From assembly GCF_003334405.1 (NCBI RefSeq), contig NZ_QOWM01000002.1: DNA of 64,000 nt. One strand, 5' to 3'. Below, in pieces: positions 37,101 through 40,100 of the stretch (positions are counted from its first letter, which is position 1; each line of letters starts with the position of its first letter). Source of the DNA: Escherichia coli. Lineage in GTDB: Bacteria > Pseudomonadota > Gammaproteobacteria > Enterobacterales > Enterobacteriaceae. The position numbers are program-made.

Positions 37101-40100
37101 CCCGTGGTTGCCGTCGGTGGTGGTCGCGAAAGTCATTTTTTCGCCGATGGCATTTTTCAGGTGCTCAAATGACAGCGTTTCGATATCAAGATGATATTTT
37201 TCACACAATAATTGAGCGATGGCGTACGCACCGCCAAGCATTTTGAAGGCGTTCAGACCGAATCGTTTTGATTCGTCTTTGACGAGAATTTTCTTCACAC
37301 CAAAAAGGTTTGCGAGATCGTCCAGCGCACAAAGCGGTGTTGGGCGATAACCAGCTATTTTCTGGTGGAACTGGCGCGCCAGTTTGGCCTGGCTTTGCGA
37401 AAAGAGCGGTGATGTTTCGCCGTTGAAAAATTTGTTATCGGCGATATCAATCTTCAATGAGAAAACGGACATATCCTATCCTTTTGGCCTCTGGAAATAG
37501 AGGGCCGACCAGCTGATCGGCCCGAGGGGTTATTTCACGCGTTCTTGCGCTTCTTTCAGCAGTTGCTCGAGCAGTGCACCTGGTTTGGCGTATTTACGGG
37601 ACAGGATCATCGCGGCGATGATATAAGGCTTCCAGCTGGCTTCTTTGTAGGTAGCGATACGGTATTTTTCGAATACGCCTTCAGTCACTTCACCTTCTTT
37701 ACAGGATACGCCGCTGATATCAGCTGGCAGGCAGTGCATGTACAGGGCTTCGCCATCACGGGTCAGTTCCATCATCTCTTCAGTACAATGCCAGTCTTTG
37801 TGTTGCGCGTTCTGTGCCAGACACTGTTTTTCCAGTGCTTTTAAGCCTTCGTGATCGTTCGCACGCAGCAATTCAGTACGCTCTTCCATCACTTTGTAAG
37901 GTGCCCATGACTTCGGATAAACGATGTCTGCGTCTTTGAAGGCTTCTTCCATGCTGGTGACCTGACGGAAGCTACCACCGGAGGCTTTAGCATTGTTTTT
38001 CGCCACTTCAACCACATCCGGGATCAGGTCGTAGCCTTCCGGATGGGCCAGGGTGACATCCATACCGAAGCGAGTCATCAGACCGATGATGCCTTGTGGT
38101 ACAGAGAGCGGTTTGCCATAGCTTGGAGAGTAGGCCCAGGTCATGGCGATTTTTTTACCTTTCAGGTTTTCCAGTGAACCAAAGTGTTCACGTAACCACG
38201 CGAGGTCAGCCATTGACTGAGTCGGGTGGTCAATATCGCATTGCAGGTTCACTAAAGCCGGACGCTGTGGCAGTACACCCTGCTTGTAACCGTCATCAAG
38301 TGCAGCGCCAACTTCACGCATATAGGCGTTGCCTGCGCCCAGATACATATCGTCGCGAATACCAATAGCGTCGGCGCAGAAGGAGATCATATTGGCGGTT
38401 TCACGCACGGTTTCGCCGTGAGCGATTTGTGATTTGCCTTCGTCGAGATCTTGTTGTGCAAGGCCGAGCAGGTTAAGCGCGGAAGCATAAGAGAAGCGGG
38501 TACGGGTGGAGTTGTCGCGGAATACGGAAATACCTAATCCACTATTAAAGACTTTGGTTGAGATGTTTTCAGCACGCAGTGCTTTTAATGCTGCGGCAAC
38601 GTCCAGTACTTGTTTCAGTTCATCTGGCGTCTGTTCCCACGTTAACAAAAAATCTTTCTCGTGAAGGTGAGAGGTCAGCGAATTGATATCCTTAATCAGC
38701 TCATTAACAGTTTTCATCATAAAGTCCCGGTAGTGGAATGACAGGCAAAGTGGTTTATTTCACTGTGACTTGCCAAAGTGATTGGTGTTTTCACAGCTAT
38801 ACCTGGGACTAACAATAAGTGTGCCAGAATTATCCGCGCGGCTGCAAAAGACTAATTTGACGGATAATGTGTGGGGTTGATCACAAATTGATGCCAGCTT
38901 CTGGTTGTTTGTAAAATACGAAAACGTTTGGCTTTTTTTATCGCGTTATTTATTTGCTGCTAAGTATCAGAAATAAGATAAAGGGGCAGGCTATCTCTCT
39001 TCAGTTTGATAAACTCACCGCCGTAATTCTCATATTGATATAGAAATGTGATATCTCTTCCATAATTTCATTAGAAAATGATAAAAATCTTATGTTTTTA
39101 TCAAAGCCAATTTCGCCTGAGTTAATATCATCATGATCTGTGAACCATCAACGTCTTCAATGATCGACTTTTAAGTAAGTCTGGAAGGTAAAGCTATGGA
39201 GCTTGCTACTACGCAGTCAGTATTGATGCAAATTCAACCGACAATTCAGCGTTTTGCCAGAATGCTTGCCAGCGTTTTGCAGCTTGAGGTTGAGATCGTT
39301 GATGAAAACTTGTGTCGCGTTGCCGGAACGGGCGCGTATGGGAAGTTTCTTGGTCGCCAGTTGAGCGGCAACTCACGCCTGCTCCGCCACGTCCTGGAAA
39401 CGAAAACTGAAAAAGTTGTGACACAGTCTCGCTTCGATCCCCTTTGCGAAGGTTGCGATAGTAAAGAAAATTGCCGCGAAAAAGCATTTCTGGGTACGCC
39501 TGTCATTTTACAGGATCGTTGTGTTGGGGTGATAAGTTTGATTGCCGTTACCCACGAGCAACAAGAGCATATCAGTGATAATTTACGCGAATTTTCTGAT
39601 TATGTTCGCCATATATCCACCATTTTTGTTTCGAAACTTCTGGAGGATCAGGGGCCAGGAGATAACATCAGTAAAATATTTGCGACCATGATCGATAATA
39701 TGGATCAGGGCGTATTAGTTGTAGATGATGAAAATCGGGTTCAGTTTGTTAATCAGACTGCCTTAAAAACACTTGGTGTTGTGCAAAATAATATTATTGG
39801 GAAACCTATCCGTTTCAGACCATTAACATTTGAGAGTAATTTTACCCATGGACATATGCAGCATATTGTTTCATGGGACGATAAAAGTGAATTAATCATT
39901 GGTCAATTGCATAACATTCAGGGCCGACAATTATTTTTAATGGCGTTTCACCAATCGCATACCAGTTTTTCTGTAGCAAATGCACCTGATGAACCGCATA
40001 TTGAACAATTGGTTGGCGAGTGCCGTGTTATGCGGCAATTAAAACGACTCATTAGCCGTATTGCACCCAGCCCATCCAGCGTTATGGTGGTTGGTGAAAG

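What the first reader, a model, noticed from the sequence alone, without database searches (positions are those of the whole stretch)
38721..39195. Parallel architecture upstream of ygeW: exact TGGCAC -24 box plus a CRP-like site, divergent from ygeV
The minus strand has TGGCAC-N5-TTGTT (38809-38826; the -12 has GT where GC is expected) and a CRP-like TGTGG-N6-TCACA at 38870-38885. The arrangement mirrors the ygfK upstream region and sits in the 475-bp divergent region shared with the sigma54 activator gene ygeV.
Basis: inference. Interest (0 to 1): 0.4.

Follow-up and report, generated by a model that had tools for sequence, protein, structure and literature searches.

The report
Known sigma-54/CRP control region of ygeW
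This is the control region of the E. coli ygeW operon (anaerobic uric-acid breakdown): a sigma-54 promoter with a CRP site upstream. Published work shows sigma-54 bound at this motif and CRP bound to a ygeW promoter fragment with this site predicted, so the finding is correct but not new.

Summary
Both motifs are present. TGTGG-N6-TCACA lies at 38870-38885. Both sit in the exact 475-bp ygeW/ygeV spacer.

Motif counts alone are at chance level, but three things make the sites real:
- Placement: about 0.005 sigma-54 hits this good are expected per spacer.
- Conservation: the sigma-54 site is present in all 32 genomes with divergent ygeV-ygeW. The CRP site sits at a fixed -77.5/-78.5 in 21 Enterobacterales.
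- Published experiments: Bonocora 2015 lists this exact 17-mer as sigma-54 ChIP-seq site OS30. Shimada 2021 found an RpoN gSELEX peak in the spacer. Li 2018 showed Crp-cAMP binds the ygeW promoter fragment, predicted this same site, and showed cAMP-dependent expression. A 2025 paper replaced the "native Crp-binding site".

I found extras that were not in the searchable literature:
- A conserved palindrome, TATCA-N3-TGATA, is the likely YgeV enhancer site. It occurs upstream of all four sigma-54 promoters of the cluster.
- The spacing between enhancer, CRP site and promoter changes in steps of about one helical turn, and no IHF consensus site is present.
- The C at -12 is absent in every proteobacterial ortholog examined.
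- A second CRP-like site lies at a fixed distance from a putative ygeV -10.

The parts
37530..38720 (-). ygeW coding sequence (knotted carbamoyltransferase), first gene of ygeWXY
   Evidence: ORF list. RefSeq annotation of identical E. coli DNA.
38721..38800 (-). Predicted 80-nt 5' UTR of ygeW, from the predicted TSS at 38800
   Evidence: TSS taken as motif centre + 19, as in Bonocora 2015, whose table gives a distance of 80. Folding is no better than shuffles (z = -0.7). No Rfam match.
38811..38827 (-). Sigma-54 promoter of ygeW, CTGGCACACTTATTGTT (GG at -25/-24, GT at -13/-12)
   Evidence: Leave-one-out matrix score 15.9 bits, the top hit of the window. ChIP-seq site OS30. gSELEX RpoN peak in the spacer. 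Homologous site in all 32 loci with divergent ygeV-ygeW, and in Aeromonas and other loci.
38870..38885 (.). CRP site 1 (TGTGATCAACCCCACA read in the ygeW direction), centred at -77.5 from the predicted ygeW TSS
   Evidence: Same site as predicted in Li 2018 Table S2, with a positive EMSA for the ygeW promoter fragment. GTGA...C.CA conserved with a free N6 at -77.5/-78.5 in 21 Enterobacterales loci.
38918..38933 (+). PurR-box-like sequence ACGAAAACGTTTGGCT (13 of 16 matches to ACGCAAACGTTTGCGT); speculative
   Evidence: The block GCCAAACGTTTTCG is conserved only in Escherichia, Citrobacter, Atlantibacter and Trabulsiella. ygeW was placed in a predicted PurR cluster in PMC4576408.
38999..39011 (.). 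Second, half-conserved enhancer-like element TATCAAACTGAAG (centre -205)
   Evidence: TATCA-N3-TG is conserved about 29 bp promoter-proximal of the main palindrome in most loci.
39028..39040 (.). Candidate YgeV enhancer (UAS) palindrome TATCAATATGAGA / TCTCATATTGATA (centre -234); family consensus TATCA-N3-TGATA
   Evidence: The exact 12-mer CTCATATTGATA occurs 3 times in the window, each upstream of a sigma-54 ChIP site. Palindrome matches with up to 1 mismatch: 9 observed against 2.4 expected, reached by 0 of 100 shuffles. Present in all spacers, with the symmetric variant TCTCA-N3-TGAGA in Erwinia and Cedecea. Co-occurs with a sigma-54 site in 9 of the 10 non-divergent loci whose best sigma-54 score is at least 9 bits, and is absent from all 33 loci whose best score is 7.4 bits or less. 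Assignment to YgeV is an inference.
39047..39062 (.). Second CRP-like site TGTGATATCTCTTCCA (2 mismatches; perfect left half AAATGTGAT), possibly acting on the ygeV promoter
   Evidence: TG...TCACA is invariant in alignment A1. It lies a constant 78 +/- 1 nt from the conserved ygeV -10-like block in 20 of 21 loci. The ygeV promoter fragment was EMSA-positive and ygeV expression was about 10-fold cAMP-dependent in Li 2018.
39123..39128 (+). Putative sigma-70 -10 element of ygeV (TAATAT; TAGTAT in most orthologs)
   Evidence: Conserved block GATAYTAAC in A1. No TSS data were available; this is an inference.
39196..40974 (+). ygeV (isrR), a sigma-54 enhancer-binding protein
   Evidence: ORF. Pfam domains: PAS 162-205, Sigma54_activat 272-439, AAA_lid_14, HTH_8 548-587, and no receiver domain.
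28995..29192 (-). Parallel ygfK control region: sigma-54 site 28995-29011, perfect CRP consensus 29074-29089 (-97.5), perfect palindrome 29180-29192 (-202)
   Evidence: ChIP-seq site OS31.
44732..44879 (-). Parallel xdhA control region: sigma-54 site 44732-44748, weak CRP-like site 44781-44796 (-67.5), palindromes 44846-44858 and 44867-44879
   Evidence: ChIP-seq site OS29. Li 2018 predicted the same CRP site and reported a positive EMSA.
13810..14004 (+). Parallel ygfT control region: palindrome 13810-13822 (-199), weak CRP-like site 13939-13954 (-68.5), sigma-54 site 13988-14004
   Evidence: ChIP-seq site OS32.

Best explanation
The 475-bp spacer is the divergent control region of ygeV and the ygeWXY operon for urate catabolism.

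Shown, here or in the literature:
- RNA polymerase carrying sigma-54 binds the -24/-12 element at 38811-38827, which faces ygeW.
- Crp-cAMP binds the ygeW promoter fragment. The only good CRP consensus in it is 38870-38885.
- ygeV, ygeW and xdhABC transcripts rise in a cAMP-dependent way under carbon limitation. Glucose represses urate degradation unless this region is replaced by constitutive promoters.
- ygeV encodes a PAS / AAA+ / HTH_8 enhancer-binding protein.

Inferred:
- YgeV binds the conserved palindrome TATCA-N3-TGA(G/T)A at -234, plus an adjacent half-site at -205. It contacts the closed sigma-54 complex by DNA looping and remodels it using ATP hydrolysis.
- CRP at -77.5 sits between enhancer and promoter on a fixed helical face. 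It adds catabolite control directly, most likely by bending the DNA as IHF does at other sigma-54 promoters, or by helping to hold the weakly bound polymerase.
- A second CRP-like site at 39047-39062 raises ygeV transcription. CRP would thus act both on the activator's level and at the target promoter, as is described for prpR-PprpB.
For: Sigma-54 promoter:
- Identical 17-mer listed as ChIP-seq site OS30 for ygeW.
- RpoN gSELEX peak in the ygeV/ygeW spacer.
- Leave-one-out matrix score of 15.9 bits, the top of the window and the only hit of at least 5 bits in the spacer.
- Conserved as YTGGCAYNNTTATTGTT in all Enterobacterales loci, and present wherever proteobacterial ygeW has a sigma-54 site.

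CRP:
- EMSA and the identical predicted site in Li 2018, together with cAMP-dependent expression.
- 'Native Crp-binding site' and glucose repression in PMC12507026.
- Conservation restricted to the positions CRP contacts (GTGA ... C.CA), with a free N6 spacer.
- Invariant position at -77.5/-78.5 in 21 loci although the 43 bp between the site and the -24 element are not conserved.
- Parallel CRP-type sites at -97.5 (ygfK, perfect), -67.5 (xdhA) and -68.5 (ygfT), which differ by about whole helical turns.

Enhancer (UAS):
-.
- In Aeromonas, where ygeV is co-directional, the palindrome still lies about 220-245 bp upstream of the sigma-54 site.

Architecture:
- The UAS-to-CRP distance is 155.5-158.5 bp in 16 of 21 loci, and otherwise 146.5 or 165.5-169.5 bp.
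- No exact IHF consensus lies between enhancer and promoter in any of 25 loci.

YgeV as activator:
- Domain architecture.
- YgeV iModulon containing xdhABC, ygeWXY, ygfK and others.
- ygeV is needed for urate consumption, per Iwadate & Kato 2019 as cited.
Against: - No experiment seen here shows YgeV binding to the palindrome, YgeV- or rpoN-dependence of ygeW transcription, or a mapped ygeW TSS.
- Sigma-54 occupancy at ygeW was low in ChIP-seq (fold above threshold 3).
- A massively parallel reporter study found no consistent footprints for the YgeV iModulon promoters under its conditions.
- The EMSA used whole promoter fragments, so binding to 38870-38885 specifically rests on sequence and conservation.
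- The positive cAMP effect on ygeW could be entirely indirect, through ygeV.
- The helical-phase argument rests on only about 3-4 independent indel events.
Confidence: 0.8

Rival explanations
1. CRP site 1 serves the divergent ygeV gene only, as activator of a sigma-70 promoter. Catabolite control of ygeW is then entirely indirect, through the amount of YgeV.
For: ygeV is the most strongly cAMP-dependent gene of the cluster, at about 10-fold. A sigma-70-like TTGATG-18-TAAAAT (38888-38917) lies directly next to the site, pointing towards ygeV.
Against: - That promoter match is at chance level (2 found, 1.8 expected).
- It would place CRP at about -46.5, which is not a standard class I or class II position.
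- Its hexamers are not conserved outside the Escherichia/Citrobacter group.
- The site's distance to the sigma-54 element is invariant in 21 loci.
- ygfK and xdhA carry CRP-type sites upstream of their sigma-54 promoters without any divergent regulator gene.
- A better-placed second CRP-like site exists for ygeV, 78 +/- 1 nt from its conserved -10-like block.
Confidence: 0.2
On this view it interferes with the enhancer-promoter contact.
For: As I recall, the best-documented precedents for CRP at sigma-54 promoters are inhibitory (own knowledge: Wang et al. 1998 EMBO J; Tian et al. 2001 Mol Microbiol). Sigma-54 occupancy at ygeW is low.
Against: ygeW and its neighbours are higher, not lower, when cAMP signalling is active. 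Glucose represses the pathway.
Confidence: 0.08
3. The TGT-N10-ACA inverted repeat is the YgeV enhancer (NifA-type UAS), not a CRP site.
For: The TGT-N10-ACA form is shared with NifA/FhlA-type enhancer sites (mentioned in PMC6615313). A similar motif occurs upstream of ygfK.
Against: - Purified Crp-cAMP shifts the fragment.
- The conserved positions are those CRP contacts.
- The site is missing at that place in Photobacterium, Erwinia and Aeromonas, which keep ygeV, the sigma-54 site and the TATCA-N3-TGATA palindrome.
Confidence: 0.04
4. Both motifs are chance matches in an AT-rich spacer.
For: Bare pattern counts are at chance level in the window. 44% of shuffled windows contain a sigma-54 hit this good somewhere.
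Against: Only 0.0045 such hits are expected per spacer. The sites are conserved in position across more than 20 genera. There are published ChIP-seq, gSELEX and EMSA data.
Confidence: 0.01

Closest known systems
prpR-PprpB (prpBCDE) control region of E. coli/Salmonella
   Same: An enhancer-binding-protein gene is transcribed divergently from a catabolic operon driven by a sigma-54 promoter. cAMP-CRP is needed both for expression of the regulator and at the target promoter (as summarised in PMC10101121).
   Different: PprpB also uses IHF. No IHF consensus lies between enhancer and promoter at ygeW in any of 25 orthologous spacers. The effector and regulator differ (2-methylcitrate/PrpR against an unknown ligand/YgeV).
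pspA and pspG sigma-54 promoters
   Same: Same non-canonical -12 element TTGT (TTGGCACGCAAATTGTA, TTGGCATGATTCTTGTA), in experimentally confirmed promoters.
   Different: Different activator (PspF) and physiology. At ygeW the missing C at -12 is conserved across all proteobacterial orthologs examined: T, A or G, never C.
ygfK, xdhA and ygfT sigma-54 promoters of the same cluster (YgeV iModulon)
   Same: Sigma-54 ChIP-seq sites OS29, OS31 and OS32. Each has a CRP-type site at -67.5 to -97.5 and a TATCA-N3-TGATA-type palindrome 130-235 bp upstream.
   Different: Only ygeW shares its spacer with ygeV. ygfK has a perfect CRP consensus but a poor -24 element. ygeW has a perfect -24 and a deviant -12.
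CRP at glnAp2 (E. coli) and dctA (Rhizobium promoter studied in E. coli)
   Different: As I recall, in those cases CRP inhibits. Here expression correlates positively with cAMP.
DioR sigma-54 regulon of Clostridiales
   Same: A sigma-54 enhancer-binding protein controls orthologous genes: dpaL(ygeX), ygeW-ygfK-ssnA-ygeY, xdhC and others (PMC6615313).
   Different: Different phylum, no CRP, and a UAS motif the paper groups among the distinct ones. I did not compare the DioR motif with TATCA-N3-TGATA.

Membership tests
Sigma-54 (-24/-12) promoter | Match to the -24/-12 weight matrix at the level of experimentally defined promoters, with GG and the -12 G spaced as in TGGCAC-N5-TTGC | tested here: met
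   15.9 bits with a matrix built from 41 other ChIP-defined sites. Rank 20 of 41 and the top hit of the window.
Sigma-54 (-24/-12) promoter | GC dinucleotide at -13/-12 | tested here: not met
   GT instead of GC. This is not disqualifying, because the confirmed pspA and pspG promoters have the same TTGT. The C is absent in all orthologs.
Sigma-54 (-24/-12) promoter | Occupied by sigma-54 holoenzyme | not testable with these tools
   Literature: ChIP-seq site OS30 with this 17-mer; RpoN gSELEX peak.
Sigma-54 (-24/-12) promoter | Transcription depends on rpoN and on an enhancer-binding ATPase | not testable with these tools
   A cognate EBP gene is adjacent, and there is iModulon co-expression. 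No direct test for ygeW was found.
Sigma-54 (-24/-12) promoter | Upstream activator sequence about 100-250 bp upstream | tested here: inconclusive
   A strong conserved candidate, TATCA-N3-TGATA, lies at -234 and is tightly linked to sigma-54 sites. Which protein binds it is not shown.
[quoted passage not shown] | TGTGA-N6-TCACA inverted repeat with a 6-bp spacer | tested here: met
   TGTGATCAACCCCACA, 1 mismatch.
[quoted passage not shown] | Purifying selection on the contacted bases (G5, G7 and their symmetry mates) but not on the spacer | tested here: met
   GTGA and C.CA are invariant or nearly so, while N6 is free, across 21 Enterobacterales.
[quoted passage not shown] | Binds Crp-cAMP, and expression responds to cAMP | not testable with these tools
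   Literature: positive EMSA for the ygeW fragment, up-group 1 expression, and the same site predicted; glucose repression.
prpR-PprpB-type divergent EBP/sigma-54/CRP control region | Divergent EBP gene, sigma-54 target promoter, and CRP site(s) in the shared spacer | tested here: met
prpR-PprpB-type divergent EBP/sigma-54/CRP control region | IHF site between enhancer and promoter | tested here: not met
   No exact WATCAANNNNTTR between the UAS and the -24 element in any of 25 spacers. Only the exact consensus was scanned.

The most novel reading that the evidence does not exclude
The four sigma-54 promoters of the E. coli urate-catabolism cluster share a modular enhancer-CRP-promoter architecture locked to the helical phase. 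In this reading:
- YgeV binds a so far undescribed operator, TATCA-N3-TGATA.
- CRP, not IHF, is the architectural co-activator that bends the DNA or recruits polymerase.
- The conserved absence of C at -12 keeps the closed complex weak enough to make the promoter depend on CRP.

This would be a positive, direct role of CRP at sigma-54 promoters. It would also define the YgeV regulon at base-pair level.
Probability: 0.3. Interest if true: 0.45.

Novelty: already known. Interest (0 to 1): 0.2.

Why it matters
ygeWXY belongs to the recently solved anaerobic (reductive) uric-acid degradation pathway of gut bacteria, which is being engineered into probiotic E. coli to lower urate. Knowing which elements impose glucose repression and YgeV dependence is practically useful. 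As submitted, the finding adds nothing to published ChIP-seq, gSELEX and EMSA data. The residual value lies in three open points that this analysis makes directly testable: the YgeV operator, how CRP acts on a sigma-54 promoter from -77.5, and why the -12 C is universally missing.

Tried and rejected
- Bare consensus counting gave chance-level numbers. I replaced it with a leave-one-out matrix and shuffles.
- Riboswitch or structured leader: no Rfam match in 38500-39400 at E up to 1. The predicted 5' UTR folds no better than shuffles (z = -0.7). An apparent long-range helix sequestering the ribosome-binding site lies partly upstream of the predicted TSS and is not conserved beyond Escherichia/Citrobacter, so I dropped it.
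- IHF site between enhancer and promoter: none with the exact consensus in 25 spacers.
- Li 2018's predicted CRP site for ygeV (AAAGGGGCAGGCTATCTCTCTT) matches the consensus poorly and falls in an unconserved part of the alignment. I consider 39047-39062 the better candidate.
- The sigma-70-like TTGATG-18-TAAAAT next to CRP site 1 is a chance-level match, is not conserved, and has awkward CRP spacing.
- I could not read Reitzer & Schneider 2001. Iwadate & Kato 2019 turned up only as a citation in another paper, and I did not request it by id. Either may contain more on YgeV sites.
- I could not test conservation of the ygfK, xdhA and ygfT sites in other genera.
- I did not compare the DioR UAS motif of Clostridiales, because it appears only in a figure.
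Full report
**1. What is in the sequence**

The window is E. coli DNA in the reverse orientation relative to K-12. ygeW occupies 37530-38720 on the minus strand and ygeV occupies 39196-40974 on the plus strand.

On the minus strand the 17-mer CTGGCACACTTATTGTT occupies 38811-38827. GG lies at 38825/38824 and GT at 38813/38812. TGTGGGGTTGATCACA lies at 38870-38885, one mismatch from TGTGA-N6-TCACA.

**2. Is it more than chance?**

Not as bare patterns. One-mismatch sigma-54 cores occur 5 times in the window against 5.7 expected. One-mismatch CRP cores occur 5 times against 2.3 expected.

I built a weight matrix from the 41 other intergenic sense sigma-54 ChIP-seq sites in Bonocora et al. 2015, leaving ygeW out. 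The ygeW site scores 15.9 bits. It is the best of all positions on both strands of the window, the only hit of at least 5 bits in the spacer, and the median of the known sites.

Dinucleotide shuffles give 0.61 such hits per 64 kb, hence 0.0045 per spacer. Sequence plus placement is suggestive. The decisive evidence is comparative and experimental.

**3. Comparative evidence**

A scan of one genome per species with YgeW returned 80 loci. In 32 of them ygeV is divergent from ygeW. These include:
- Escherichia, Citrobacter, Atlantibacter, Trabulsiella, Kluyvera, Enterobacter, Pluralibacter, Klebsiella oxytoca, Kosakonia, Serratia, Hafnia, Edwardsiella, Morganella, Cedecea and Erwinia
- Photobacterium
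- a betaproteobacterial MAG

In all 32, the best sigma-54 hit in the spacer is the homologous YTGGCAYNNTTATTGTT-type element, placing the predicted TSS 55-101 nt from the ATG in 31 of them (218 nt in L033).

Aeromonas, two further proteobacterial MAGs and Endozoicomonas also carry the element. In 33 loci from Bacteroidetes, Riflebacteria, Verrucomicrobia and others, the best score in the 350 bp upstream is at most 7.4 bits (median about 2).

The CRP-type site lies at exactly -77.5 or -78.5 from the predicted TSS in 21 Enterobacteriaceae, Hafniaceae and Morganellaceae loci. In the alignment of 21 spacers (A1; mean column identity 41%), GTGA and C.CA are invariant or nearly so, while the six spacer bases and the 43 bp down to the -24 element vary freely. 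This is the pattern expected for CRP, which reads G5 and G7 in each half-site.

**4. Published evidence: the finding is already known**

- Bonocora et al. 2015 (PMC4591121), Table 1, row OS30: peak centre 3004190, motif CTGGCACACTTATTGTT, gene ygeW, distance 80, fold above threshold 3. The same table lists xdhA (OS29), ygfK (OS31) and ygfT (OS32), and all three motifs are in this window.
- Shimada et al. 2021 (PMC8743547) found an RpoN-holoenzyme gSELEX peak in the ygeV/ygeW spacer.
- Lamoureux et al. 2023 (PMC10602906) cite Reitzer & Schneider 2001 for predicted sigma-54 promoters upstream of xdhABC and ygeWXY. They also define a YgeV iModulon containing these operons.
- Li et al. 2018 (PMC6390033) place ygeV, ygeW and xdhABC in the cAMP-dependent 'up-group 1'. 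They report Crp-cAMP EMSA shifts for their promoter fragments. Table S2 predicts the ygeW site as ATTTGTGATCAACC(C)ACACAT at -168 to -146 from the ATG, which is 38867-38888 here.
- A 2025 paper on the reductive urate pathway (PMC12507026) replaced 'the native Crp-binding site' in this spacer with constitutive promoters. It showed that glucose represses urate degradation in the wild type only.
- The GT at -12 has precedent in the confirmed pspA and pspG promoters.

**5. What else the region contains (not found in the searchable literature)**

*(a) Candidate YgeV enhancer.* The 12-mer CTCATATTGATA occurs exactly three times in 64 kb: at 13811, 39029 and 44846. Each copy lies 110-240 bp upstream of a sigma-54 ChIP site.
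- Across species the consensus is the 13-bp palindrome TATCA-N3-TGATA. E. coli ygeW has TATCAATATGAGA and ygfK has the perfect TATCATAATGATA.
- Matches with up to 1 mismatch number 9 in the window against 2.4 expected, reached by 0 of 100 shuffles. Five of the nine lie in the four control regions.
- Every spacer with divergent ygeV-ygeW has it. Erwinia and Cedecea carry the symmetric variant TCTCA-N3-TGAGA.
- Among loci without divergent ygeV, the palindrome is present in 9 of the 10 whose best sigma-54 score is at least 9 bits, and in none of the 33 whose best score is 7.4 bits or less. In Aeromonas, where ygeV is co-directional, it still lies about 220-245 bp upstream of the sigma-54 site.
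- YgeV has PAS, Sigma54_activat, AAA_lid_14 and a Fis-type HTH_8 domain, and no receiver domain. It is therefore a ligand-sensing enhancer-binding protein, not the 'orphan response regulator' it is called in PMC9426417.
- Assigning the palindrome to YgeV is an inference. Text searches for these sequence strings returned only unrelated papers.

*(b) Geometry.* The enhancer-to-CRP distance is 155.5-158.5 bp in 16 of 21 loci. It is 146.5 bp in Kluyvera and Serratia oryzae, and 165.5-169.5 bp in Hafnia, Edwardsiella and Erwinia, so it changes in steps of about one helical turn. No exact IHF consensus lies between enhancer and promoter in any of 25 spacers. In E. coli the CRP-type sites of the four promoters lie at -67.5, -68.5, -77.5 and -97.5.

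*(c) A second CRP-like site.* It lies at 39047-39062 (AAATGTGAT ATCTCT TCCAT). Its TG...TCACA positions are invariant. It sits a constant 78 +/- 1 nt from a conserved -10-like block (TAATAT/TAGTAT, 39123-39128) in 20 of 21 loci. That places it at about -80 from a putative ygeV start, a plausible class I position.

*(d) The -12 position.* In every proteobacterial ortholog it is T, A or G, and never the consensus C.

**6. Mechanism**

Shown:
- sigma-54 holoenzyme binds the element;
- Crp-cAMP binds the fragment;
- expression is cAMP-dependent and repressed by glucose;
- ygeV encodes an enhancer-binding protein.

Inferred:
- YgeV bound at -234 (and -205) loops to the closed complex.
- CRP at -77.5 acts directly on PygeW, on a fixed helical face. 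Probably it bends the DNA in place of IHF, or stabilises a weakly bound polymerase (fold above threshold only 3).
- CRP also acts indirectly, by raising ygeV transcription through the second site.

This is the logic described for prpR-PprpB, where cAMP-CRP is needed both for prpR expression and at the sigma-54 promoter (PMC10101121).

The main rival is that CRP site 1 acts only on ygeV. Three observations weaken it: the invariant spacing to the sigma-54 element, the parallel sites at ygfK and xdhA that lack a divergent regulator gene, and the poor, unconserved sigma-70 match beside the site. An inhibitory role, as I recall for glnAp2 and dctA, conflicts with the positive cAMP response. A YgeV-binding role for the TGT-N10-ACA repeat conflicts with the EMSA and with the loss of that repeat in lineages that keep YgeV.

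**7. Verdict**

Novelty: already known. Interest in the finding as submitted is low. The candidate YgeV operator, the phase-locked arrangement of enhancer, CRP site and promoter without IHF, and the universally deviant -12 base are new leads that can be tested directly.

Noticed in passing
window 39028-39040, 29180-29192, 13810-13822, 44846-44858, 44867-44879; also L001-L044 spacers: The conserved 13-bp palindrome TATCA-N3-TGATA lies 130-245 bp upstream of every sigma-54 promoter of the urate cluster and of ygeW sigma-54 promoters in Enterobacterales, Photobacterium, Aeromonas and beta-proteobacterial MAGs. It is absent wherever ygeW lacks a sigma-54 site. It is the likely YgeV operator, and I did not find it in the searchable literature.
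   Followed up: yes
window 38812 (the -12 base) and homologous positions in about 42 loci: The consensus C at -12 is replaced in every proteobacterial ortholog of the ygeW promoter: T in Enterobacterales; A in Aeromonas, Erwinia and beta-proteobacteria; G in Photobacterium. The conserved deviation from consensus is unexplained.
   Followed up: partly
window 39047-39062 and 39123-39128: A second CRP-like site (AAATGTGAT...TCCAT, 2 mismatches) has invariant TG...TCACA positions. It sits a constant 78 +/- 1 nt from a conserved -10-like TAATAT/TAGTAT block in front of ygeV. It is a better candidate for cAMP control of ygeV than the site predicted in Li 2018.
   Followed up: partly
window 38918-38933 and 13647-13662: There are two PurR-box-like sequences, ACGAAAACGTTTGGCT and AAGCAACCGTTTACGT, each with 13 of 16 matches to the consensus. 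One lies in the ygeV/ygeW spacer and is conserved only in the Escherichia/Citrobacter/Atlantibacter/Trabulsiella group. The other lies just upstream of uacT (ygfU). Two matches against 0.42 expected in the window. A 2015 bioinformatics paper placed ygeW in a predicted PurR cluster.
   Followed up: partly
L081 (E. coli CFS3273), corresponding to window ~39140: An IS1 element is inserted 56 bp upstream of the ygeV start codon in one bovine E. coli strain. It separates ygeV from its putative promoter and from the shared control region.
   Followed up: partly
window 37184-37196: A perfect TATCAAGATGATA palindrome lies inside the ygeX coding sequence. It could be chance or an internal YgeV site; I did not examine it.
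   Followed up: no
window 39196-40974 (YgeV protein): YgeV has PAS, AAA+ and HTH_8 domains and no receiver domain. The description 'orphan response regulator' in the IsrR paper does not fit its architecture; it looks like a ligand-sensing enhancer-binding protein.
   Followed up: partly
window 38721-38760 (5' UTR just upstream of the ygeW ATG) and alignment A1 columns 700-745: The block GCCnGTCATTC-AC-TAC-CAGGA, immediately upstream of the start codon, is conserved across Enterobacterales beyond the Shine-Dalgarno sequence. There is no significant structure and no Rfam match, and its function is unknown.
   Followed up: partly
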